Of a stretch of DNA of 64,000 bases, positions 41,967 through 56,203 are shown piece by piece. Numbering within the stretch: position 1 is the first letter of the stretch; each line of letters opens with the position of its first letter. The stretch lies in assembly GCA_000004695.1 (NCBI GenBank), contig CM000154.2, positions 1,888,001 to 1,952,000 on the forward strand. The letters run 5' to 3'. This DNA is from Dictyostelium discoideum. Its lineage: Eukaryota. The notes under the pieces were generated by a model. That model worked only from the letters and a program-made list of their open reading frames with translations, ran no database searches and was not told the origin of the DNA. Position numbers and translations under genes: made by a program.

Positions 41967-42320
<354 letters not shown>

Positions 42321-42346
42321 TAATAATAATAAAACTTGTAAATATT

Positions 42347-45765: not shown

Positions 45766-45768
<3 letters not shown>

Positions 45769-46884
45769 TTAACTCAAGATGAACATAGAGAGGCATGTAG
45801 AGTTTACATGCAAAAATATAGAAGTAAACCAGAGAATAGAGAAAAGATAAGACAACAAAATGCAGAATATAGAAAAAGAAAGAAGCAAGAATCAATTAGA
45901 CAAGTTACAGAGATTGGATCATTAGAAACTACTCTCGATAGTCAAAACTCTAGAATCAGTCAATTGGAAAAACAATTGATTGAATCAAATTTTAAAGTTA
46001 ATTTATTTGAAAAAGAAAAATTAATACCAAAAAATTATTTAAATATTATCAACACTTTAAGATTACAATTAACCAATGCTCAAAATGAAATTGAAGAACA
46101 AAAGAATACAATTTCATTCAATCATCAACAACAACAATCACTTCAACATCAATTACAATCTTTACAATTACAACAACAACAACAATTGGAATTAATAAAT
46201 GCTTATAGTGGTGCCACTAATAATAATAGCAATAATAATTTAACATCACCATCTTCAACTAGTTCATTTTCATTACCACCAACTCCAACTTCTTCAAATG
46301 TTCCATTACAACCATCATTTCAAAGTTCATTCTCTGCTATGAATAGTTTAACAAATGAACAACTTCAACCACAATCACAATCACAATCACAATCACAATC
46401 ACAATCACAATCACAATCACAATCACAATCACAATCACAACAACAACAACAACAACAAAAACAATCACAAAATGTAAATAAAAAACAAAAGATAGTTGGA
46501 TTATTTAATCAAGAATCTAGTCCATCCTCGTCATCATCATCACCATCATCATTTTCAAGTCCACCATCATCTCCTTCACTTCAATATCTTCCATACTCTC
46601 CAGCTTTACCAAATTCAATGACAAATTCTCCATCACCTACTCCAAGTGTAAGCGGTGGTGGCGGTAGTAGTGCTGTATCAACTCCACAAATTTCTTCAAA
46701 TTATTCCAATACAAGTACTGGTAGTTTATCCTCTCTAGTTCCTTTTGAAGAAAATGGCTCAAATATTGTTTCATTTAAACAAACTAATCATTTCACTCTA
46801 GATCTCTTATGTGAGGTACTTCAAAGCGAAAAATCTTTACAGCATACCACCATCACCTTTCCAAGAAAAAAGAAATTTTGGTGA
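45766..46884 (+). CDS. bZIP-like transcription factor (basic region REKIRQQNAEYRKRKKQ followed by a heptad Leu repeat) with (QS)n and Ser/Pro-rich low-complexity C-terminus
   Basis: ATG at 45766 follows a 60-nt poly-A tract. The track's upstream extension is a poly-K artefact. N-x2-AE-YR-KRKK fits the bZIP basic motif, and L/L/L spaced every 7 follows. Confidence 0.45.
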
Positions 46885-47068
46885 TTTTAAAACAAGTATT
46901 GGTTTTGTTTTAAATGATATTAAATTATAAAAAAACAAACAAACCCAAACGAACTAACAAACAACAAGCAAACAAACAATATTTTTTCAATTTTATTTTT
47001 ATTTTTTTTTATATTTCTAATTAATAAAATATTATTTTATTCCATTAATTTATTATATCTTTTGTTTG

Positions 47069-47109
<41 letters not shown>

Positions 47110-48039
47110 CTAAAAATAAAGAATAAATATAAAACATAATCATTATGGTTTAAAAATAATATTTTTTTAAACTATTTTATTTTTATACATTTAATATTTT
47201 ATTTATTTTACTTTTTTTAATTTAATTTATTTTATTATATATTATTTATTTCTTCTTGGTCAGAATCTTCAGAACCTTGGCTTGAATCTTCTTGGTCAGT
47301 TTATTCTTGACCATAATTTTAAAGTTGTTGTTGGAATATTATTTAGCATTTAGTTAAAGAGATCATTAATGTTACTTGGGCCAAAAGTTTTAAAACCATC
47401 TAATAGTTTTGATATTTTTTCCTTTAACCAAACACATTTACGAATAATATTTTTATTTTGTACCCATTATATCAGATAAGCCTTTTAAAAAAATAGTCTT
47501 TCATTCTCTGTCCAGTTTGAACCCTATTTAATTATAATTTGAATAAAAGTATTAATGATGATCACCACTACTTGGTAATTTCTATCACCACTACCCCATT
47601 TTAAAAAATTAATTAAATTGTATTTGTAGAAAAAAGAAAAAATTAAAATTAAATGAAGAAAAAAAAAAAATATAATTTTGGAAAAAAAAAAAAAAATTAA
47701 TTTTGGAAAAAAAAAAAAAATTTAAAATTAATTTACAAGAATTCAACTCCATACACAATTTTATATTTTTTTTTTATTTTTTTTTTTTTATTTTTAAATT
47801 AAGCTTTATAAAATATGTTTATAGTTAAAATTTTTTTTTTTTTTTTTTTTAAATTTTTTTTTTTTTTTTTTTTTTCAAGTTTTTTTTTTTTTATTTCTAT
47901 AAAATAAAAATACAAACATATAAATTCAATTTATACAAATAAATAATAAAAGATAAAAAAAAAAAAAAAAAATGGAATTTTTGTAAGTGTAATTTAAAAA
48001 ATTATAAAAACAATATATTATGAGGAAGAATTTTTTTTT

Positions 48040-49600
48040 TTAGATAAAACAATAAACTTTGTAATGCAATAAATTTGCATCATAAAAAACTTTAATATCA
48101 TGGATTTGGTTGAGAGAATGGTAACCAATGGGAAAATTAAAGAAATATTACCAAAGTTAATATCAACAAAACAAATTCATGAAGAAAAGATTTTATTTTT
48201 AATTAATTTAATTTTAGTATTGTTGGAATCTATTAATTTCATTAAAATTGATAAATAGATAGAGAATTTTAACAATAACACCAATTAATGAAAATAGATT
48301 TAATTTATTGAATGATTATTGGCAAATGTTATTAGAAAATCATCAGTTTTTAAATAATCATTTTATTGAAACAGGAGTATATAATAATTTAATAATCAAT
48401 AAAGATACGTTTGAAAGTGAAGGCAGATTAGAACAAATTCAATTTTATACTCTAGTACATCCAATAATTTGCAAAAACTGTATCAGAAACATTAGCTCAT
48501 AATGCCAAAAATAGATTCAATGATTCAACCATAACTCCAAATCAAATTGTAGACCATACTCGTTTGCTCAATGGTACATGTGAATCTACTTTTTGAATGT
48601 TGAAAAATGGACAATGGATAGAACATGACCAGAGCTCAGTGCTTATATGAACTCATTTAGATCATTCTCTATGCAATGTGTCCAATCGACCACCACTTGG
48701 GATTCAACAACCATTAGAAGAATACCATATTATCGTGATGAACCAGAATATGATACTGAAACTAAATTGGAATTTATTAGATTATTTTTTAATAGTTTGA
48801 CAAATCAATTCTCTAAAAGAACCTTTACAAGAAATGAAAATAAGCAACCATTTGAATCCGAAATGGTAAATCAATTCAATGATAGCAAATTAAAATTAAA
48901 TTATTGTTTAAAATTAGTTAGAAACAATTTCTTGTGCGAAACTGGTAAATTTCAACTTTCAATCAAAGGTTTGTCCAAGTCCCACACCAAGAAAAAAGAG
49001 CAATTTCAGTAAATATAGCAAGAAAATGTATAGGTTATAATGAAGATTCTCGTTTAGATGCTGTAATTTTTCAAACATCTGATTTTCGCCGTAAAGTTAT
49101 ATTTAAAGAAGAAGTTGCCAACTATGAATTTACTCCAAGTTTGGTAAATGAATCAATTAAAATAAAGAATGAATGTGAAGATTTAACACTTCTCCTCAAT
49201 GAAAGAAGATTGGTTCTAAATCAAAATCCAATTTTGTTATCCCAACTAATCGATTTGGCATCAATTATTAAAAATGAAAAACACGAATATAATGCGTTCA
49301 AATAAAATTTCTAATCAACTTAGAATGCAATAATCAAAAATAAAGAATTATTCTGATTCATATTTTGAAAAGGCAAATACTTTCAAATTTAATAAATCAA
49401 TTGTTTCAGAGATTGAAGTCAAATAATTTAATTGAAAGAGAAGGTCTTCCCAATAAATTAGAAAACCTAGATATGGAAAATATTATTGGTTTATATGAAA
49501 TTGAATCTTCAAATGATAATATGGAATGAAAATCCAAATCTATAATTTATTATTGAGGCTTGAACATTATGTGAATCTAATTTTTGTTATAGTGTCATTT
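48040..49600 (+). mobile_element. Degenerate repetitive element / decayed gene, copy A: multi-frame ORF fragments (MDLVERMVTNGKIKEILPKL...; NSFRSFSMQCVQSTTTWDS...; NEDSRLDAVIFQTSDFRRKVIFKEEVANYEFTPSLVNE...; EGLPNKLENLDMENIIGLYEIESSNDNME)
   Basis: Codon-like composition but with frameshifts and stops. Homologous to segments at 51950-52100, 53740-53830 (same orientation) and 53900-54110 (inverted). Confidence 0.5.
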
Positions 49601-49775
49601 CTGGTTTCANNNNNNNNNNNNNNNNNNNNNNNNNNNNNNNNNNNNNNNNNNNNNNNNNNNNNNNNNNNNNNNNNNNNNNNNNNNNNNNNNNNNNNNNNNN
49701 NNNNNNNNNAAAATTAGATTCACATAATATAATGTTCAAGCCTCAATAATAAATAATAGATTTGGATTATTATCA
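49527..49775. repeat. Inverted repeat (about 60-bp arms) flanking the assembly gap at 49610-49709
   Basis: 49527-49590 aaaatccaaatctataatttattattgaggcttgaacattatgtgaatctaatttt is the reverse complement of 49711-49775, allowing 2-3 mismatches. Confidence 0.8.
49610..49709. other. Assembly gap (100 N)
   Basis: Run of n. Confidence 1.
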
Positions 49776-50689
49776 AAAAAAATGGCTGATATAATTAAAA
49801 ATTTATAAATAATAATAATAAATATAATAAAAAAATAAATAAATAAATAAATAAAATTTTAAATAATAAAAAAAAATTAAGAAAAAAAAGGTTAACAAAT
49901 TGAAGCCTTAATATTTATAAATAATAAAAAAAAAAAAAAAAAGTAAGAAAACATTAATTAACATCACATCAAATTTGTTTCGTCAACTTTTTAATTTAAA
50001 TTTAAATGAAGAGATAGAAAATTTAAAATCTGCATATATGCTTATATTGGGAATTAAATCTTTTTAAATGGTTTCAAGTTGGCCCGTTGTAAATGAAATA
50101 ATTGATCTTGAAATTACTGTTGATATTGTAATAGTAATTTCTGTTGTTTTTCTATTTACTGTGAGATTGGTGACATTGTTTCATTATTATTATTATTTTG
50201 TTGACCAGTTATCATTGGCCCATTATCCTCATTATTATAAACTTATTTAATAAACTAATTAAATTAAATAAATTATTACTATTATTAAAGGAAGAAGAAA
50301 ATCTTGTAAATCAAACTCTGGATTTATTTGAAAAAACGGCCCTTGATTTTTTCAAAATATTTTTTAAAAAAAAAAAAAATTAAATGTATAATTATCTAAA
50401 AACAAATTTTAATAATTTAAGATCAAGATTTTGTACCATATCTGTTCTTTTTATTTTTAGATACACTATTTAAATGTTTTAGAATATGTTGAGTTAATAA
50501 AATTACATTTTTTAAAAAAAAATATTTGAACAGATTGGGTAAAAAAAAAAAAAAGAAATTAAAATATTTTTTTAAAAAATTCAGGAATAAATTAATATTT
50601 TATTAATTAGAAATATAAAAAAAAAAAAAAAAATTTAAATGAATAAATAATCTACAAATAAAATTATTTATAATTTTGATTATTCTTTG

Positions 50690-51120
50690 CAACAATTTTT
50701 GATATTTTGAGAGAGCTTTACAGCAATTTCAATAATACTGTACAGTCCATCTTTTTTCGAAATTCTTATCAATTGTAATCATGATAGTTTGCAGTTAGAA
50801 CAATGGCAGTAACTGCTGGTGAAACATCACGAAGAAGGGTATATGCAACACGTTGAACATCAGCAACTGTGATTTCATTAATACGTGTGTATACCTCAAA
50901 TGGTGATAAACGACGACCTAAAGTTAAAATTTGACGACCAATGCCTTCGCAAACTTTACTGGTACCATCGTATTGCATTAATGTGGTAGCTAAAAGTTTT
51001 TGTTTGTTACGTTCTACCTCATTTTTATTGCAACTAGTTGCGATTCTTTGCCACTCCTTCAAACATTTCAGCAACTAAATCATCAACACGTTCTGGTTGA
51101 CAAACACCATAGTTACCAAA
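50690..51120 (-). pseudogene. Partial duplicate (last roughly 110 codons plus stop and proximal 3' flank) of the mitochondrial processing peptidase beta gene at 54800-56203
   Basis: 50769-51074 encodes MLKCLKEWQRIATSCNKNEVERNKQKLLATTLMQYDGTSKVCEGIGRQILTLGRRLSPFEVYTRINEITVADVQRVAYTLLRDVSPAVTAIVLTANYHDYN, near-identical to the C-terminus of the 54800 gene. The 3' part (50700-50830) is frameshifted. Confidence 0.8.
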
Positions 51121-51511
51121 AGAGAAAGAACAAACAAAAAAATAAACAAACAAACAAACAAACTAAACAATAAGCTTGGTTTTTTGGTTTGTTTGTTTGT
51201 TTGTTTGCTTGTTGTTTCCTAAACTTTTAATGAATTCTCTTTATATTACATGTAATCTAATTCTTTTTTGCCAGGACTCCTTCAAGAACTTAAAACTTTA
51301 AAATGCCATATTATTCGGACAAATTGGACAAAATCTTAGAAAATAGTTTTTTGGAACAAAAGAAATTGAAATACCAGTTACTCTTTTATGTATAAAGATT
51401 GGTTGATTGCTTTTGTTTTTTAAAAAAAAAAAAAAAAAAAACGCACACTTATAAAAATAGGTAATAACTATTTATTTTTATTTTTTATTCTATCCTCCCT
51501 TTTATCTTTTG

Positions 51512-51545
<34 letters not shown>

Positions 51546-51949
51546 CAATTGGATAAATAAATGAAAATAAGAAATTTAAAAAACTAAAAAAAAAAAATAA
51601 TAATAATAAAAATCCCAACTCAATTTATATTATACAAACGTATTTTTTATATTTTAAAAAAAAAATTTGAAAATTTATATATTTTAAAGGAAAAAAAATT
51701 CTTATCTAACTGTTTTTATTCTGTTCAAAATATAAAAATGTATATTACTTGTTTTGGTGATTTTTTTTTTAATATTCTATTTATTATATTCATTTTTTGG
51801 ATTTTAGTCATTTTTTGTATATTTTACATATTTTATACTATCATTTTGGGTTGAAGTGAAGTAAAATAAAATTTTGCTACCTATTATGGAAAGGGATCAT
51901 ATAGGTTTAAAAATAATGATTATTATTTGGATAATCTAAAATATAAAAT

Positions 51950-52987
51950 TAAAATAGTAATGCAACTAATTTTGCTTTTTAATAATGGATTTGGTTAAGA
52001 GAATGGTATCCAATTGAAGAATTATAGGAATGTTACCAAGTTTTTACCAACAAACATTAAAATTGATATTGAGTTTTTAACAACTACACGTGTAGTATAC
52101 TAATAAATGAAAAATTAAAATATTTCAAAAATTAAATCAATTTCTTTTTATTTTATCATTATATTATATAGTTTTGGAATAGACTATATGTTTAAATAAT
52201 AATAGTAAAAAAAAAAATAATGGTTAAAAAATATTTACATTCAAACAATTAATCCATCAAAACTCAAACATTCTTCACGACCACTGAGAAAAATTTTAAC
52301 TTAGGCACTATAAGCCCCAACAGCCCAAACTGAATTGTAAAAACCTTGTAAGGGCTGTTCTTAACCCTTATGAATGATGTATGGGCTGCTTGCAAAGTTT
52401 CAAATTTTGCACGCAGCCCGTACAGTCTTTTAAAGGGTTGTGTAAAGCCCTTACAAGGTTTTTTAGATATTTGCTAACAACAATAATACTTAAAAAAAAA
52501 AAACGGTTGCACAACCCATTCAAATTTTTAAAAAAAATTATTCAAACGAAAATTCAATATTAATAAATATATATGAAATTTCATATTTATATAAAAAAAT
52601 AATCAAAATAAATACAATAATTTATAATTTTTTTTTTTTATATAAAAAAATATAAAATCAAATAAATATAAATATATTTTTATCTATTTTAAATTTTATA
52701 TAAATTTTTTTTTTTTTTTTTTTTTTCTATTTATTTGATTTTATTTGATTTTTTTATTTTTGACCTAAAATAAATGTAAAGTTATTAGTTAAAGTTATTA
52801 GTTTTTTTATTTTTTTTTTTTATTTATTTATTTTTTTTTTTTTAGGTACTTTAATATTAAAAAAAAAACATGTTATTTTTTAAAAAAAATTTACATTTAT
52901 ATATAGGATATAAATTTTCCTATTTTATTTTATTTTATTTCCTAAATATAAATTCCTATTTTATTTTATTTTATTTATTTATTGGTT

Positions 52988-53069
<82 letters not shown>

Positions 53070-54110
53070 TAATTGACTATAGTATAATAATTTTTGAATC
53101 TATATTTAAATAAAATATAATTGAAAAATATAAAATAAAAACAATATGCAAAGTGATTTTTTATTTTAATTTTGGTAAAGAGAAAATTAAAATTAAAAAA
53201 AAGAAAAAATTAATAATAAAAAATACTACATACATTCAGGTTTTTATTTTTTTTGCAAAGTCACAAACAATATTATCGTATTTTCTTACCAAATGTTTAA
53301 ATAAATAAATTTATTAACAACGATTAAATATTGTTTATTTTTTAAATACATTTAAAAAAGAAAAAATTATAAACCTTGTTATTGCCCATTTTAAAAAAAA
53401 CCTTTGGAATCTTTGCAGTACATTTTTTTTTTTAAAAAAAAAAAATACCTTGTATTAGCCCGGTTGGGACGAATAGACCGTTCAGCCATTTAGTCCATTT
53501 TTTTTTTTTTAAAAAAAAATTTTTTAAGGACTGTCAACCGGGTTTATACAAGCCCTTATAAGAGATCATGGCTTGGTCGTGTTGTAAAATAATATATAAA
53601 CAATAAAATAAAATAAAATAAAATAGAAAAAAATATTAAAATCATTTTAAATCATATAATGTATGTGCCATATTTGATCTTTATTAAACATTATTTTTAG
53701 TTTTTCAGCTGAAGTCAAAATAAATAAGTTAATTGATAGAGAAGGTACCATGAAATTAGAGAAAATAGTTATTGAAAATATTATTAGTTTAAATGAAAAA
53801 GAATTTTCAAATGGATTTATGGAAATTTATTATTTATTAAACCTATATTGTGTCGATTTGAGTGTTTTCATCTTTTCCAAGGATGAATCAGCCAATTTCT
53901 TTATTTTAGAAGTTGCTTTCTAAGTTGACTCTGAGATTATTTCTAATCCATTATGGATTTATATATATGGTTTTTTCTCTTTTACAATATGAAATCTTCT
54001 TTCATTCATCCTTAAATTTAATAAATTCATATAACAAGCTTAGAGAAATTTCATAGTGGGCAACTTCTTCAGAAATATAACTCTACGACGAACATCTGGT
54101 GTAGGACTTT
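51950..54110. mobile_element. Copy B of the degenerate repetitive element (rearranged: head and Y-segment in plus orientation, X-segment inverted), containing a poly-T60 tract and two hairpin elements
   Basis: 51960-52080 (aatggatttggttaagagaatggta...) is homologous to 48100-48200. 53740-53830 (EGTMKLEKIVIENIISL...) is homologous to 49440-49520. 53900-54110 reverse-complemented (…RRRVIFLKKLPTMKFL…) is homologous to 49060-49160. Confidence 0.5.
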
Positions 54111-54154
54111 GGACAAACCTTCGAAAGAAATAAAATAATTATCAACACACCAAC

Positions 54155-54193
54155 ATAATAATAATATAATGATAATAATAATAATAATAATTA

Positions 54194-54283
<90 letters not shown>

Positions 54284-54298
54284 TAATAATAATAATAA
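54155..54298. repeat. (AAT)n microsatellite
   Basis: ataataataata... about 140 bp. Confidence 0.9.
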
Positions 54299-54611
54299 GA
54301 TTACTCAACTAAAACATACAAAACACAAATATTAAATAAACGTGAATAAAATAATATATATGAAAATTATAAATATAAATTGTTATTTTAGGGAAAAATA
54401 TCATAAATGCCCAACACATACCAAAACACTCAACGGATGAATATAAAAATAAAGACCAAATATCAATACGAATTAAAACGATTTTAGTATGTTTTTTTTT
54501 TCATTTTATTTTATTATTATTTTTATATATATTATTTTTTAACAGTTTTTTTTTGAGAATGTATGAGTTTAGTGTGGATTAATTGCCTGAATGTATTTAT
54601 GTATTAACCAC

Positions 54612-54614
<3 letters not shown>

Positions 54615-54701
<87 letters not shown>

Positions 54702-54708
54702 TAATATT
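54615..54708. repeat. (ATT)n microsatellite
   Basis: attattattatt... about 95 bp. Confidence 0.9.
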
Positions 54709-54799
54709 ATTAATATTATTATTTATTTTTATAAACCTATAATCTGTTCCAATACTAAATAATTTAAAGATAAAAAAAAAAAAAATTAGTAAAAATTTA

Positions 54800-56203
54800 T
54801 TAGTTAAAATTTTTGGAAAAAAATTGAGAGAGCTTCGCAGCAATTTCAATAATACTTACAGTCCAGCCTTTAACAAAATTGTAGTCAGGGTAGTTTGCAA
54901 TTGGGCCAATGGCAGTAACTGCTGGTGAAACATCACGAAGAAGGGTAGATGCAACACGTTGAACATCAGCAACTGTGATTTCATTAATACGTGTGTATAC
55001 CTCAAATGGTGATAAACGACGACCTAAAGTTAAAATTTGACGACCAATGCCTTCGCAAACTTTACTGGTACCATCGTATTGCATTAATGTGGTAGCTAAA
55101 AGTTTTTGTTTGTTACGTTCTACCTCATTTTTATTGCAACTAGTTGCGATTCTTTGCCATTCCTTCAACATTTCAGCAACTAAATCATCAACACGTTCTG
55201 GTTGACAAACACCATAGTTACCGAAAAGACCTGTATCTTGATAACAAGTGAAAAAGGTAGAATAAGATTCTGCAAGATCTTCAGTGGCAACAATTTCACC
55301 AAGGTTTGATGCAATGTTTTTACCGGCGGCAATACCACGATTCCAGTTACCAATCATAGTTTGAATTAATTCTAAAACAAAGTAATCTGGATCAGTCCAT
55401 GGAAGGGCTCTAACAGCAACGGCAAAATGAATCAATGGTTGTTCATCATCACGGACACGGAGTTCTGAACCAATAAAGTCATTGGTGATTGCGGCTCTCT
55501 TTACATCTTTAGAAACTTGTGACATCTTTACGTTTGCGAATTTCTCTTTAACTTGTTCAACGAGTTGTTCATGGTTAACTGCACCAGCAGCAGAGATAAC
55601 TAAACGATCACCAGTATAATTTTCATTGATAAATTCTTGAATTTGTTCACGAGTAATTGATTTAATATTTTCGACTGGACCTAAAATGGTTCTACCTAAT
55701 GCTGAACCTTGGAAAGCGGCGGCGTGTAATTGATCAAAGACAACTTCATCTTCTTTGGATTGAATATAATCGTTTTCACTGAGGATGGTGTCACGCTCTT
55801 GTTCAATTAATGAGGTTTCAAATTTACTATTTTGTAAGATATCAGAGAGGATATCAACGGCATTTGGTACGTTATCTTTTAAAACTTTCATGTAGTAAGC
55901 ACTGTGTTCACGACTAGTGAATGCATTTAAACTACCACCCATATTTTCAATTTCAGTTTCAATTGATTGTGGTGTTGGACGTTTGGCTGTACCTTTGAAA
56001 ATCATATGTTCTAAAAAGTGTGCTACACCATTATTCTTATCAGTTTCATAAACTGAACCACTATCAACCCAAACACCTACACTTGCAACTTCACCATATG
56101 TTTGTTCTGTTGCAACTCTAATACCATTTGATAATGTTGTAATTTTAGTTTCTGGTGAAATCTTTAAATATGATGGGTCAACTGTTTTTCTTGAAAATGA
56201 TCT
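54800..56203 (-). CDS. mppB: Mitochondrial processing peptidase beta subunit (M16 metallopeptidase; inverted-zincin HxxEH). Main exon; the initiator ATG is probably in a separate upstream micro-exon (56486-56488)
   Basis: GVAHFLEHMIFKGT (HxxEH), NAFTSREHSAYY, and MPP-beta-like N-terminal segment SYLKISPETKITTLSNGIRVATE. An in-frame TAG sits immediately upstream of the acceptor ttttag|AGA at 56204-56205, so no Met lies in this exon before the HxxEH region. ATG|gtgtag at 56488-56483 is in phase. Confidence 0.85.
   Translation of the reverse strand, partial: RSFSRKTVDPSYLKISPETKITTLSNGIRVATEQTYGEVASVGVWVDSGSVYETDKNNGVAHFLEHMIFKGTAKRPTPQSIETEIENMGGSLNAFTSREHSAYYMKVLKDNVPNAVDILSDILQNSKFETSLIEQERDTILSENDYIQSKEDEVVFDQLHAAAFQGSALGRTILGPVENIKSITREQIQEFINENYTGDRLVISAAGAVNHEQLVEQVKEKFANVKMSQVSKDVKRAAITNDFIGSELRVRDDEQPLIHFAVAVRALPWTDPDYFVLELIQTMIGNWNRGIAAGKNIASNLGEIVATEDLAESYSTFFTCYQDTGLFGNYGVCQPERVDDLVAEMLKEWQRIATSCNKNEVERNKQKLLATTLMQYDGTSKVCEGIGRQILTLGRRLSPFEVYTRINEITVADVQRVASTLLRDVSPAVTAIGPIANYPDYNFVKGWTVSIIEIAAKLSQFFSKNFN

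What the first reader, a model, noticed from the sequence alone, without database searches (positions are those of the whole stretch)
50690..51175. Near-identical 420-bp duplicate of the MPP-beta 3' end, ending at a CAAA-repeat palindrome
50769-51074 encodes the last 101 aa of the peptidase with only 3-4 substitutions relative to 54800-55110. The identity extends about 40 bp past the stop codon into 3' flanking sequence before diverging at about 50760, which implies a DNA-level (not retro) duplication that is recent. The copy breaks off at 51118 exactly where an imperfect palindrome begins: aacaaacaaacaaacaaactaaacaataAGCTTggttttttggtttgtttgtttgtttgtttg, centred on aagctt. A related (CAAA)n tract (46925-46985) lies just 3' of the bZIP-like gene. 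The palindrome may be the recombination or element-terminus breakpoint.
Basis: seen in the sequence. Interest (0 to 1): 0.55.

Follow-up and report, generated by a model that had tools for sequence, protein, structure and literature searches.

The report
Dead mppB gene fragment at inversion breakpoint
This is a real but non-functional partial copy of the 3' end of the Dictyostelium discoideum mitochondrial processing peptidase beta gene, sitting among other rearrangement debris where a two-gene inversion joined mppB to a new neighbour; it is an ordinary kind of feature, of interest mainly as a well-resolved local rearrangement hotspot.

Summary
The duplicate is real. Window 50,707-51,123 (minus strand) copies mppB 54,824-55,229, and a de novo long-read assembly of a sister lab strain reproduces it exactly, so it is not a mis-assembly. 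The window is D. discoideum AX4 (mppB identical to Q4W6B5).

- The sequence shared "past the stop" is the first 37 nt of a 105-nt terminal intron. This still shows a DNA-level copy.
- Identity is mosaic: about 99% over 317 bp, about 80% over the last 93 bp (p = 9e-9).

Context:
- The fragment lies inside a ~650-bp inverted copy of the 3' flank of the neighbouring gene G387. It is inserted at that flank's (CAAA)n microsatellite, which is folded back into the palindrome.
- A second, older mppB piece (intron end, last exon, 3' flank) lies inverted at 52,140-52,290.
- A second strong palindrome is hidden in the N-gap at 49,610-49,709.
- The interval is the breakpoint of a CAP-mppB inversion specific to the D. 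discoideum complex.
- Sister strains carry different mppB fragments or none. Outgroups have neither inversion nor fragments.

Best reading: an old unprocessed pseudogene fragment made by fold-back or template-switch repair, its core recently homogenised by gene conversion. It is a new member of a known kind, of modest interest.

The parts
50707..51123 (-). frag1: unprocessed mppB pseudogene fragment. The exon-derived part is 50,744-51,123 and the first 37 nt of the terminal intron are 50,707-50,743, with GTAAGT mutated to GTACAGT.
   Evidence: Identity is 99% in the core 50,801-51,117 and about 80% in 50,708-50,800. There is a frameshift at 51,061 and a premature stop at 50,769.
50746..50800 (-). 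Scrambled patch inside frag1, about 30% diverged with a 10-bp insertion, mostly GC->AT changes.
   Evidence: No donor was found in the window or in 9 loci.
51118..51228 (.). pal2: the (CAAA)n/(TTTG)n fold-back palindrome at the 5'-truncated end of frag1. The far arm (51,176-51,228, minus strand) is a copy of the S-left microsatellite of the G387 3' flank.
50652..50706 (-). 55-bp spacer of unknown origin between frag1 and S'-right.
   Evidence: It is not the remainder of the intron (P = 0.52).
50004..50655 (-). S': an inverted duplicate of the G387 3' flank (S-right, 'a' and 'k' segments).
   Evidence: An exact 25-mer at 50,593-50,617 matches 47,010-47,034 (0 expected). Window 50,474-50,650 is 87.6% identical to the native flank in L004 (score 55.5 against a null of 25.5+-5.7). 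Window 50,004-50,080 matches L004 14,523-14,589 with conserved spacing.
46926..47370 (+). S: the native 3' flank of G387 (degenerate (CAAA)n tract 46,926-46,980, then a T-rich stretch and TATATTTCTAATTAATAAAATATTA). This is the source of S'.
   Evidence: It is conserved next to the G387 ortholog in L001, L004, L005 and L006.
45766..46884 (+). G387 (the 'bZIP-like' neighbour), whose 3' end now faces the mppB 3' end.
   Evidence: No Pfam domain was found.
52140..52290 (+). frag2: a second, older mppB relic comprising the 3' end of the intron, a degenerate terminal exon (TTTTGGAATAGACTATATG) and the 3' flank. It is inverted relative to both frag1 and the parent.
   Evidence: Alignment scores are 100 and 98 against the L001 parent and L003 fragA, and 67 against the AX4 parent, with a null of 28+-8 (max 50). 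Identity is 85-89% to other strains and 77% to the AX4 parent.
49531..49790 (.). pal1: a near-perfect palindrome whose centre is the reference N-gap (49,610-49,709). The left arm is the 3' UTR of an AX4/AX2-only gene.
   Evidence: L002 16,900-17,095, -84.5 kcal/mol, z = -23.
54737..56200 (-). Parent mppB gene: main exon ending at 54,860, intron 54,859-54,755, terminal exon 54,754-54,737. The donor segment for frag1 is 54,824-55,229.
   Evidence: It is 100% identical to D. discoideum AX4 Q4W6B5.
53856..54102 (-). Inverted partial copies of the AX4-only gene (49,075-49,388), which are further patchwork in the same interval.

Best explanation
Frag1 is a non-functional, unprocessed (DNA-level) partial duplicate of the 3' end of mppB. 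It lies in a rearrangement-prone interval created when the two-gene block CAP-mppB was inverted in the ancestor of the D. discoideum complex. That inversion brought the mppB 3' end face to face with the 3' end of G387.

In this interval, breaks were repaired by copying short stretches of nearby DNA in direct and inverted orientation. The breaks plausibly occurred at the length-unstable (CAAA)n microsatellite of the G387 3' flank and at hairpin-forming sequences, and the repair was of the fold-back priming or template-switching type.

The result in AX4/AX2 is a patchwork. It contains an inverted copy of the G387 flank, with a 5'-truncated mppB piece inserted at the microsatellite, which is itself folded back into a palindrome. 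It also contains a second inverted mppB piece, pieces of an AX4-only gene, and a second large palindrome.

The patchwork is old: its unconverted parts are 12-23% diverged. The 317-bp core of frag1 has since been homogenised with the functional gene 3.7 kb away by gene conversion, which makes it look recent.

Shown: the anatomy, the intron content, the mosaic identity, the inversion, the strain polymorphism and the independent assembly. Inferred: the repair mechanism, the age, and gene conversion.

The confidence of 0.6 applies to this full statement including 'old plus gene conversion'. The narrower claim, a dead unprocessed partial duplicate in a breakpoint hotspot, is about 0.9.
For: Real and DNA-level: the region is 100% reproduced in an independent de novo assembly, and it contains 37 nt of intron.

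Disabled: it has a frameshift, a premature stop, a mutated splice donor and no ATG start.

Mosaic identity: 3 differences in 317 bp against 16 in 93 bp (Fisher p = 9e-9). The probability of a 211-bp identical run under uniformly placed differences is 1.5e-5. The copy shares AX4-specific derived bases with the parent in the core, for example 55,049 C against T in 8 of 8 other genomes.

Old context: S' is about 87% identical to S. Frag2 is 77% identical to the AX4 parent but 85-89% to other strains. Changes in the diverged part are mostly GC->AT.

Embedded in an inverted copy of the neighbour's flank.

Fold-back junctions recur: pal2, pal1, and a hairpin of mppB sequence at the start of L003 fragB.

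Inversion: the gene order is G-CAP(-)-mppB(+)-PHP in D. purpureum, D. firmibasis, D. citrinum and D. dimigraforme, against G-mppB(-)-CAP(+)-PHP in all D. discoideum-complex genomes.

Fragment distribution: fragments occur only in the complex and vary between genomes. AX4/AX2 has 1 direct copy plus frag2, L001 has 1 inverted copy fused to (CAAA)n and a G387 3' fragment, L003 has 3 tandem-type copies, and L004/L005 have none.

Structural divergence: the AX4 interval 47,370-54,865 is essentially unalignable with L004/L005.
Against: One AX4-specific derived base (54,891) lies inside the diverged 3' part, which fits a recent origin better.

Differences cluster near both ends of the fragment. That pattern is also what error-prone repair synthesis at a recent event would give.

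The closest D. discoideum strains (L004/L005) lack any fragment, so an old origin requires loss or a long-lived structural polymorphism.

The simple staggered-break inversion model predicts the mppB relic at the other breakpoint (next to PHP) and in inverted orientation. That is not seen.

The exact order of events cannot be reconstructed, and the spacer and the scrambled patch have no identified donor.
Confidence: 0.6

Rival explanations
1. A recent single event in the AX4/NC4 lineage. A break in the (CAAA)n tract of a pre-existing inverted flank copy was repaired by a templated insertion copied from mppB 3.7 kb away. Error-prone synthesis or multiple template switches then scrambled the ends. 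No gene conversion is needed.
For: The core is 99% identical and carries AX4-specific derived bases, and even the 3' part shares one (54,891). Differences cluster within about 70 bp of the 5' junction and about 95 bp of the 3' junction. The fragment is absent from the closest wild D. discoideum strains. A T-rich microhomology (TCTTTT) sits at the 5' junction.
Against: About 16 events in 93 bp, including a 10-bp insertion, is far more than known repair-synthesis error rates, and no template for the patch was found. The GC->AT bias looks like long-term decay. The neighbouring pieces (S', frag2) are old. L001 has an old fragment (9-10% from all parents) with the same junction partner.
Confidence: 0.25
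2. Assembly artefact: collapsed or chimeric reads of the true mppB gene placed next to a low-complexity palindrome.
For: The window is a gapped draft, and an N-gap flanked by inverted repeats lies 1 kb away.
Against: Both copies lie on one gap-free stretch. The de novo Nanopore+Illumina assembly of a sister lab strain reproduces 741 bp at 100% and closes the gap with a real palindrome. The copy has its own private mutations and its own flanks.
Confidence: 0.02
3. Terminus or cargo of a mobile element (MITE, Helitron or Pack-type gene-fragment capture), with the (CAAA)n palindrome as the element end.
For: It is a gene fragment next to a palindrome. GC-richer hairpin-forming islands lie nearby (52,339-52,463).
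Against: Both flanks of the fragment are copies of the neighbouring gene's own 3' flank. There is no TSD. There are no additional copies of the palindrome, the hairpin or the flanks in 64 kb plus ten 22-kb loci. No transposase-like ORF is present.
Confidence: 0.03
4. A functional regulatory fragment. Read-through transcription from the AX4-only gene on the plus strand would be antisense to frag1 and hence to mppB, giving dsRNA or siRNA that tunes mppB.
For: The orientation allows it. The gene at 48,647-49,529(+) points at frag1 (minus sense), and the 211-bp perfect identity would suffice for RNAi.
Against: There is no expression evidence. The fragment is absent from other D. discoideum strains and from outgroups, so it is dispensable. 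A very strong palindrome lies between the gene and frag1. Both core substitutions relative to the parent frame are non-conservative or frame-breaking, so there is no sign of constraint.
Confidence: 0.05

Closest known systems
Unprocessed (duplicated) pseudogene fragments kept similar to their parent by gene conversion, e.g. CYP21A1P/CYP21A2 or the GBA pseudogene (own knowledge)
   Same: It is a DNA-level copy with intron sequence, truncated and disabled, lying a few kb from the parent in direct orientation. It has long tracts of near-identity next to diverged tracts.
   Different: It is only about 415 bp with no promoter or 5' exons. It is embedded in an inverted copy of another gene's flank. 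Conversion is inferred from the mosaic pattern rather than observed.
Duplications at inversion breakpoints (staggered-break model; Ranz et al. 2007, Drosophila; Anopheles 2Rj, PMC1952172 listed)
   Same: A lineage-specific inversion has duplicated pieces of the genes that border the breakpoint, some of them in inverted orientation.
   Different: The relics lie at only one breakpoint, and frag1 has the wrong position and orientation for the simple model. Strains that share the inversion differ in their relics, so later events are needed.
Fold-back / microhomology-mediated template-switching rearrangements (FoSTeS/MMBIR; palindromic duplication from hairpin-capped breaks; own knowledge)
   Same: It is a patchwork of short segments copied from within a few kb, in both orientations. 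The junctions are palindromic, a microsatellite lies at the junction, and mutations cluster near the junctions.
   Different: The mechanism is inferred from the end product only. Microhomology is T-rich and therefore weakly informative in a 20% GC genome.
Unalignable, fragment-rich 'hypermutable hotspot' at the Dictyostelium tgrBC locus (Holland et al. 2025, PMC12745789)
   Same: It occurs in the same organisms. The region is unalignable between close strains and contains duplicates and partial fragments of neighbouring genes, with local inversions and duplications and no TE enrichment.
   Different: It is a different chromosome and scale (about 8 kb against 34-138 kb). It involves housekeeping genes rather than a polymorphic recognition family, and there is no evidence of diversifying selection.

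Membership tests
Processed pseudogene / retrocopy | Lacks the parent's introns | tested here: not met
   The copy contains the first 37 nt of the terminal intron directly after the exon.
Processed pseudogene / retrocopy | 3' poly(A) tract and target-site duplications | tested here: not met
   The copy ends inside the intron. It lacks the terminal exon and the 3' UTR, and no TSD is present.
Unprocessed (duplicated) pseudogene fragment | Genomic-DNA copy that includes non-coding parental sequence | tested here: met
   The exon-intron junction is retained, and the copy is on the same chromosome 3.7 kb from the parent.
Unprocessed (duplicated) pseudogene fragment | Disabling lesions or truncation | tested here: met
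   It is 5'-truncated at residue ~340 of 469. It has a +1 frameshift at 51,061, a premature TGA at 50,769, and its splice donor GTAAGT is mutated to GTACAGT.
Unprocessed (duplicated) pseudogene fragment | Not required: absent in close relatives | tested here: met
   No fragment occurs within 10 kb of mppB in two wild D. discoideum genomes or in five outgroup genomes.
Gene conversion between paralogous sequences | Significantly non-uniform distribution of differences, with a long identical tract beside diverged tracts | tested here: met
   Fisher p = 9e-9. The 211-bp identical run has P = 1.5e-5.
Gene conversion between paralogous sequences | Phylogenetic incongruence: the converted tract groups with the parent, the unconverted tract with older lineages | tested here: inconclusive
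   The core shares AX4-specific bases (55,049, 55,141). The 3' part keeps 1-2 ancestral bases (54,905, 54,900) but also shares one AX4-specific base (54,891).
Inversion-breakpoint duplication (staggered breaks) | A derived inversion whose breakpoint coincides with the duplicates | tested here: met
   [CAP-mppB] is inverted only in the D. discoideum complex, polarised with D. purpureum. The fragments lie between mppB and its new neighbour G387.
Inversion-breakpoint duplication (staggered breaks) | Inverted duplicates of breakpoint sequence at opposite ends of the inverted segment | tested here: not met
   There is no mppB or S copy at the CAP-PHP junction. Frag1 is direct and on the same side as the parent.
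Transposable element / captured gene fragment | Terminal inverted repeats or TSDs flanking the unit, and multiple copies | tested here: not met
   The palindrome is a single fold-back at one end. The flanks are copies of the G387 flank. No further copies occur in the window or in ten loci. A whole-genome copy number could not be tested.
Known RNA gene (Rfam) | Score at or above the family gathering threshold | tested here: not met
   Only sub-threshold hits were found on the palindromes in 46,900-54,900. No tRNAs were found.

The most novel reading that the evidence does not exclude
The (CAAA)n microsatellite in the 3' flank of G387 may be a recurrent fragile site. Since the CAP-mppB inversion placed it opposite mppB, it would have independently captured 5'-truncated mppB 3' pieces by fold-back template switching in separate lineages. 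These are AX4/AX2 (direct, with palindrome) and the cryptic species represented by L001 (inverted, fused to a G387 3' fragment). A separate tandem-duplication series exists in L003. That would make this a small, housekeeping-gene counterpart of the tgrBC 'hypermutable hotspot'. It may also feed the presence/absence polymorphism of the mppB terminal intron through conversion between the gene and its relics.
Probability: 0.25. Interest if true: 0.5.

Novelty: new member of a known kind. Interest (0 to 1): 0.3.

Why it matters
It matters modestly, for four reasons.

1. It shows that a 'recent-looking' duplicate in the D. discoideum reference is probably an old relic refreshed by gene conversion. 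That is a caution for dating duplicates by identity.

2. It pinpoints at base-pair level a lineage-specific micro-inversion breakpoint. The same few kb have been rebuilt differently in each strain of the D. discoideum complex, with fold-back palindromes and an unstable microsatellite at the junctions. This is useful material for studying break repair in an extremely AT-rich genome, and a small parallel to the tgrBC hotspot.

3. The fragment shares 211 bp of perfect identity with an essential gene. It is therefore a potential donor of a frameshift by conversion and a mapping or knock-out design hazard.

4. It explains why the reference has an assembly gap at 49,610-49,709: a near-perfect palindrome lies there.

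Tried and rejected
- Lenient blastn of the region against the window was swamped by AT-rich low-complexity hits. I replaced it with exact k-mer matches and empirical null distributions.
- My first seed-chaining script was too strict and used a range that excluded the parent, so it was uninformative.
- The sequence beyond the palindrome (51,229+) is not a degenerate reverse-complemented G387 coding end like the one in L001 (score 9.5 against a null of 16.5).
- The 55-bp spacer 50,652-50,706 is not the remainder of the intron (P = 0.52).
- A search for a donor of the scrambled patch 50,752-50,790 in the window and 9 loci found none.
- Rfam, the tRNA scan and Pfam on G387, the AX4-only ORF and the fragment ORF all gave nothing useful. 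One Pfam call failed on wrong coordinates.
- The GC-richer islands of the interval were tested for repetition as a TE signature. They are single-copy apart from internal hairpins.
- A literature search for an annotated mppB pseudogene or a described inversion at this locus found nothing specific.
- A genome-wide search for other (CAAA)n-palindrome-terminated fragments was not possible, because no eukaryotic DNA collection is searchable with these tools.

Full report
**Identity of the window.** GC content is 20.6%, and five 100-N gaps mark a scaffolded draft. The peptidase gene on the minus strand encodes a protein 100% identical to D. discoideum AX4 MppB (Q4W6B5 / XP_001134518). The window is therefore D. 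discoideum AX4-type chromosomal DNA.

**Checking the observation.**
- Window 50,707-51,123 aligns with 54,824-55,229 on the same strand. Identity is 96.3% overall, with exact runs of 56, 211 and 41 bp.
- The palindrome is real. Its arms are 51,118-51,170 and 51,176-51,228, centred on AAGCTT at 51,172. As single-stranded DNA it folds at -25.8 kcal/mol, z = -4.5.
- The (CAAA)4 16-mer occurs nowhere else in 64 kb, with 7 overlapping hits on the two arms against 0.08 expected.
- The tract at 46,926-46,980 is a degenerate C/A-rich repeat. It shares an exact 21-mer with the minus-strand arm of the palindrome.
- The 101-aa ORF corresponds to residues 362-458 of 469. It has five substitutions, and a +1 frameshift at 51,061 kills the parental frame upstream.

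**Correction of the gene model.** On the minus strand the real gene reads ...GGC TGG ACT|gtaagt...atttag|TAT TGG AAC AGA TTA TAG. This gives a 105-nt intron (54,859-54,755) and an 18-nt terminal exon encoding YWNRL*, which matches the database protein. The mechanical ORF stop at 54,800 lies inside this intron. This still proves a DNA-level copy rather than a retrocopy.

**Not a mis-assembly.**
- Both copies lie on one gap-free stretch.
- A 741-bp segment spanning the fragment and palindrome is 100% identical in GCA_054883475.1 (L002 15,370-16,110). That assembly belongs to a set made de novo from Nanopore plus Illumina reads (Holland et al. 2025, PMC12745789).
- The same assembly closes the window's gap at 49,610-49,709. 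The gap hides the centre of a near-perfect palindrome with ~88-bp stems (-84.5 kcal/mol, z = -23).

**Mosaic divergence.** The differences are far from uniform.
- The core 50,801-51,117 has two substitutions and one 1-bp insertion in 317 bp.
- The 3' part 50,708-50,800 has about 13 substitutions and three indels in 93 bp. Fisher's test gives p = 9e-9.
- A 211-bp identical run has P = 1.5e-5 if 19 events are placed uniformly.
- I polarised sites with eight other genomes. In the core the copy shares AX4-specific derived bases with its parent (55,049 C against T in 8 of 8 others, and 55,141).
- Most differences are private to the copy and GC->AT. In the 3' part the copy keeps one or two ancestral bases, but it also shares one AX4-specific base at 54,891.

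**What the fragment is embedded in.**
- The 3' flank of the upstream gene G387 (45,766-46,884, the 'bZIP-like' gene) consists of the C/A-rich tract (S-left) followed by a T-rich stretch containing TATATTTCTAATTAATAAAATATTA (S-right).
- That 25-mer recurs exactly once more, on the minus strand at 50,593-50,617, just beyond the 3' end of the fragment (0 expected).
- Window 50,474-50,650 aligns to the native flank of the G387 ortholog in L004 at 87.6% (score 55.5 against a null of 25.5 +/- 5.7, max 42.5).
- Window 50,004-50,080 matches a further piece of that flank with conserved spacing, 394 against 369 bp.
- On the other side of the fragment, the far arm of the palindrome is S-left.

The mppB piece therefore sits inside a ~650-bp inverted duplicate of the neighbour's 3' flank. 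It is inserted at the end of that flank's microsatellite, and the microsatellite is folded back to form the palindrome. A 55-bp spacer (50,652-50,706) is of unknown origin and is not the intron remainder (P = 0.52).

**More debris in the same interval.**
- Window 52,140-52,290 on the plus strand is a second mppB relic. It comprises the intron 3' end, a degenerate terminal exon (TTTTGGAATAGACTATATG) and the 3' flank, inverted relative to both frag1 and the parent.
- Its alignment scores are 100 and 98 against other strains' mppB 3' ends and 67 against AX4's own, with a null of 28 +/- 8 (max 50). Identity is 85-89% against 77%.
- Inverted and direct pieces of an AX4/AX2-only gene (48,647-49,529) lie at 53,856-54,102 and 51,978-52,054.
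- No gene is called in the ~5 kb between mppB and that gene in the annotated assembly.

**Comparative context.** I fetched the mppB locus from ten genomes.
- In D. purpureum, D. firmibasis, D. citrinum (two strains) and D. dimigraforme the order is G(+) CAP(-) mppB(+). G orthology was confirmed by tblastn.
- In all five D. discoideum-complex genomes and in the window the order is G(+) mppB(-) CAP(+) PHP(+), so the CAP-mppB block is inverted.
- With D. purpureum as outgroup, the D. discoideum state is derived. One breakpoint lies between the 3' ends of G387 and mppB, exactly the interval that holds the fragments.

Extra mppB 3' fragments exist only in the complex, and they differ between genomes:
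- AX4/AX2: frag1 (direct) plus frag2.
- L001: one inverted fragment, tail-to-tail with the gene. Its 5'-truncated end is fused to a ~110-bp (TTTG)n tract and then to a second partial copy of the G387 3' end. This is the same junction partner and the same relative orientation as in AX4. This fragment is 9-10% diverged from every parent, so it is old.
- L003: a tandem duplication of a ~630-bp unit, with the dimer copied again 3 kb away. No (CAAA)n is involved, and there is a fold-back of mppB sequence at one junction.
- L004, L005 and all outgroups: none.

The AX4 interval 47,370-54,865 is essentially unalignable with the 2-2.9-kb interval of L004 and L005. The microsatellite is very length-variable, with 156 bp of pure repeat in L005.

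**Interpretation.** The fragment is a dead, unprocessed partial duplicate in a rearrangement hotspot at an inversion breakpoint. Three features point to repair or replication by fold-back priming and template switching between sequences a few kb apart:
- palindromic junctions recur (pal1, pal2 and the L003 hairpin);
- the copied pieces are short and come from immediately neighbouring DNA in both orientations;
- an unstable microsatellite is involved.

This mechanism is inferred from the products. For the age I favour an old patchwork, at about 0.6. The unconverted pieces are all similarly diverged: S' at ~12%, the frag1 3' part at ~17% and frag2 at ~15-23%. On this reading the frag1 core was recently homogenised by gene conversion with the parent 3.7 kb away. 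The alternative is a recent templated insertion with error-prone ends, at about 0.25. It is favoured by the shared base at 54,891 and by the absence of the fragment from the closest wild strains. It is disfavoured because ~16 events in 93 bp with no identifiable template is far beyond repair error rates.

A simple staggered-break inversion model does not fit the position or orientation of frag1. L001's arrangement (G 3' end, then (CAAA)n, then the mppB 3' fragment in sense, tail-to-tail with mppB) would fit an inversion that arose by inverted duplication followed by deletion. That remains speculative.

**Rejected or unsupported readings.**
- Mis-assembly is excluded (see above).
- Retrocopy is excluded, because intron sequence is present.
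- A mobile-element terminus is unsupported. The flanks are neighbour-gene DNA, there is no TSD, and there are no other copies in the data held.
- No known RNA gene was found.
- A regulatory antisense role is not excluded, because a plus-strand gene points at the minus-sense fragment. There is no evidence for it, and the fragment is dispensable in relatives.

**Comparison with what is known.** This is a new example of well-known kinds: an unprocessed pseudogene fragment, breakpoint-associated duplication, and gene conversion. Its closest analogue in the same organisms is the fragment-rich, unalignable tgrBC hotspot described by Holland et al.. Nothing specific to this locus was found in the literature.

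**Verdict.** Novelty is 'new member of a known kind', and interest is about 0.3.

Noticed in passing
window 54,755-54,859 (mppB terminal intron); L003 11,880-12,070; L004 ~11,840-11,880; L005; L009; L010 12,358-12,448: The terminal mppB intron is presence/absence polymorphic among very close genomes. It is present in AX4/AX2, L001 and the citrinum/dimigraforme genomes, and absent (contiguous ...YWNRL*) in L003, L004, L005 and D. firmibasis. D. purpureum has an intron about 9 codons upstream. The L003 parent and its fragments carry the YWNRL* 18-mer directly on the exon, followed by the intron-like sequence and a second degenerate copy of the 18-mer. This looks like an intermediate of intron gain by tandem duplication, or of imprecise loss.
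   Followed up: partly
window 49,531-49,790 (N-gap 49,610-49,709); L002 16,900-17,095: The reference assembly gap hides the centre of a near-perfect palindrome with ~88-bp stems (-84.5 kcal/mol, z = -23). Its left arm is the 3' UTR of an AX4/AX2-only gene.
   Followed up: yes
window 52,339-52,463: A 125-nt GC-rich, near-perfect hairpin lies immediately after frag2. It is single-copy in all the data held and has no Rfam family, only sub-threshold miRNA-like hits.
   Followed up: partly
window 48,100-49,529 (+); L002 17,094-18,523: One or two genes between G387 and the fragment have no protein-level counterpart in any other locus fetched, only short DNA matches in L001, and no Pfam domain. Pieces of them are scattered, direct and inverted, at 51,978-52,054 and 53,856-54,102.
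   Followed up: partly
L005 14,254-14,409; L004 15,142-15,165; L001 12,607-12,720; window 46,926-46,980: The (CAAA)n/(TTTG)n microsatellite in the G387 3' flank varies greatly in length and purity between strains, from 24 bp to 156 bp of pure repeat.
   Followed up: partly
L003 12,000-21,900: This cryptic-species genome lacks the G387 ortholog within 10 kb of mppB. Its Tmemb_14/600-aa gene pair is inverted relative to the other D. discoideum-complex genomes, so a further rearrangement has used the same breakpoint region.
   Followed up: partly
L010 (D. purpureum) vs L009 (D. firmibasis): The whole G-CAP-mppB block is inverted relative to Tmemb_14 between D. purpureum and D. firmibasis. This suggests that breakpoints around this three-gene block have been reused over deeper time.
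   Followed up: no
window 54,620-54,700 and 54,150-54,300: There are long (ATT)n/(AAT)n expansions in and beyond the mppB 3' UTR of AX4 that are absent from the orthologous 3' flanks of other strains.
   Followed up: no
window 9,553-10,047 vs 11,258-11,790; 18,130-20,580; 42,090-42,330: The self-BLAST showed other repeats: an ~80% direct repeat pair of ~500 bp, and extensive tandem or dispersed repeats around 18-20.6 kb with a related copy at 42.1 kb.
   Followed up: no
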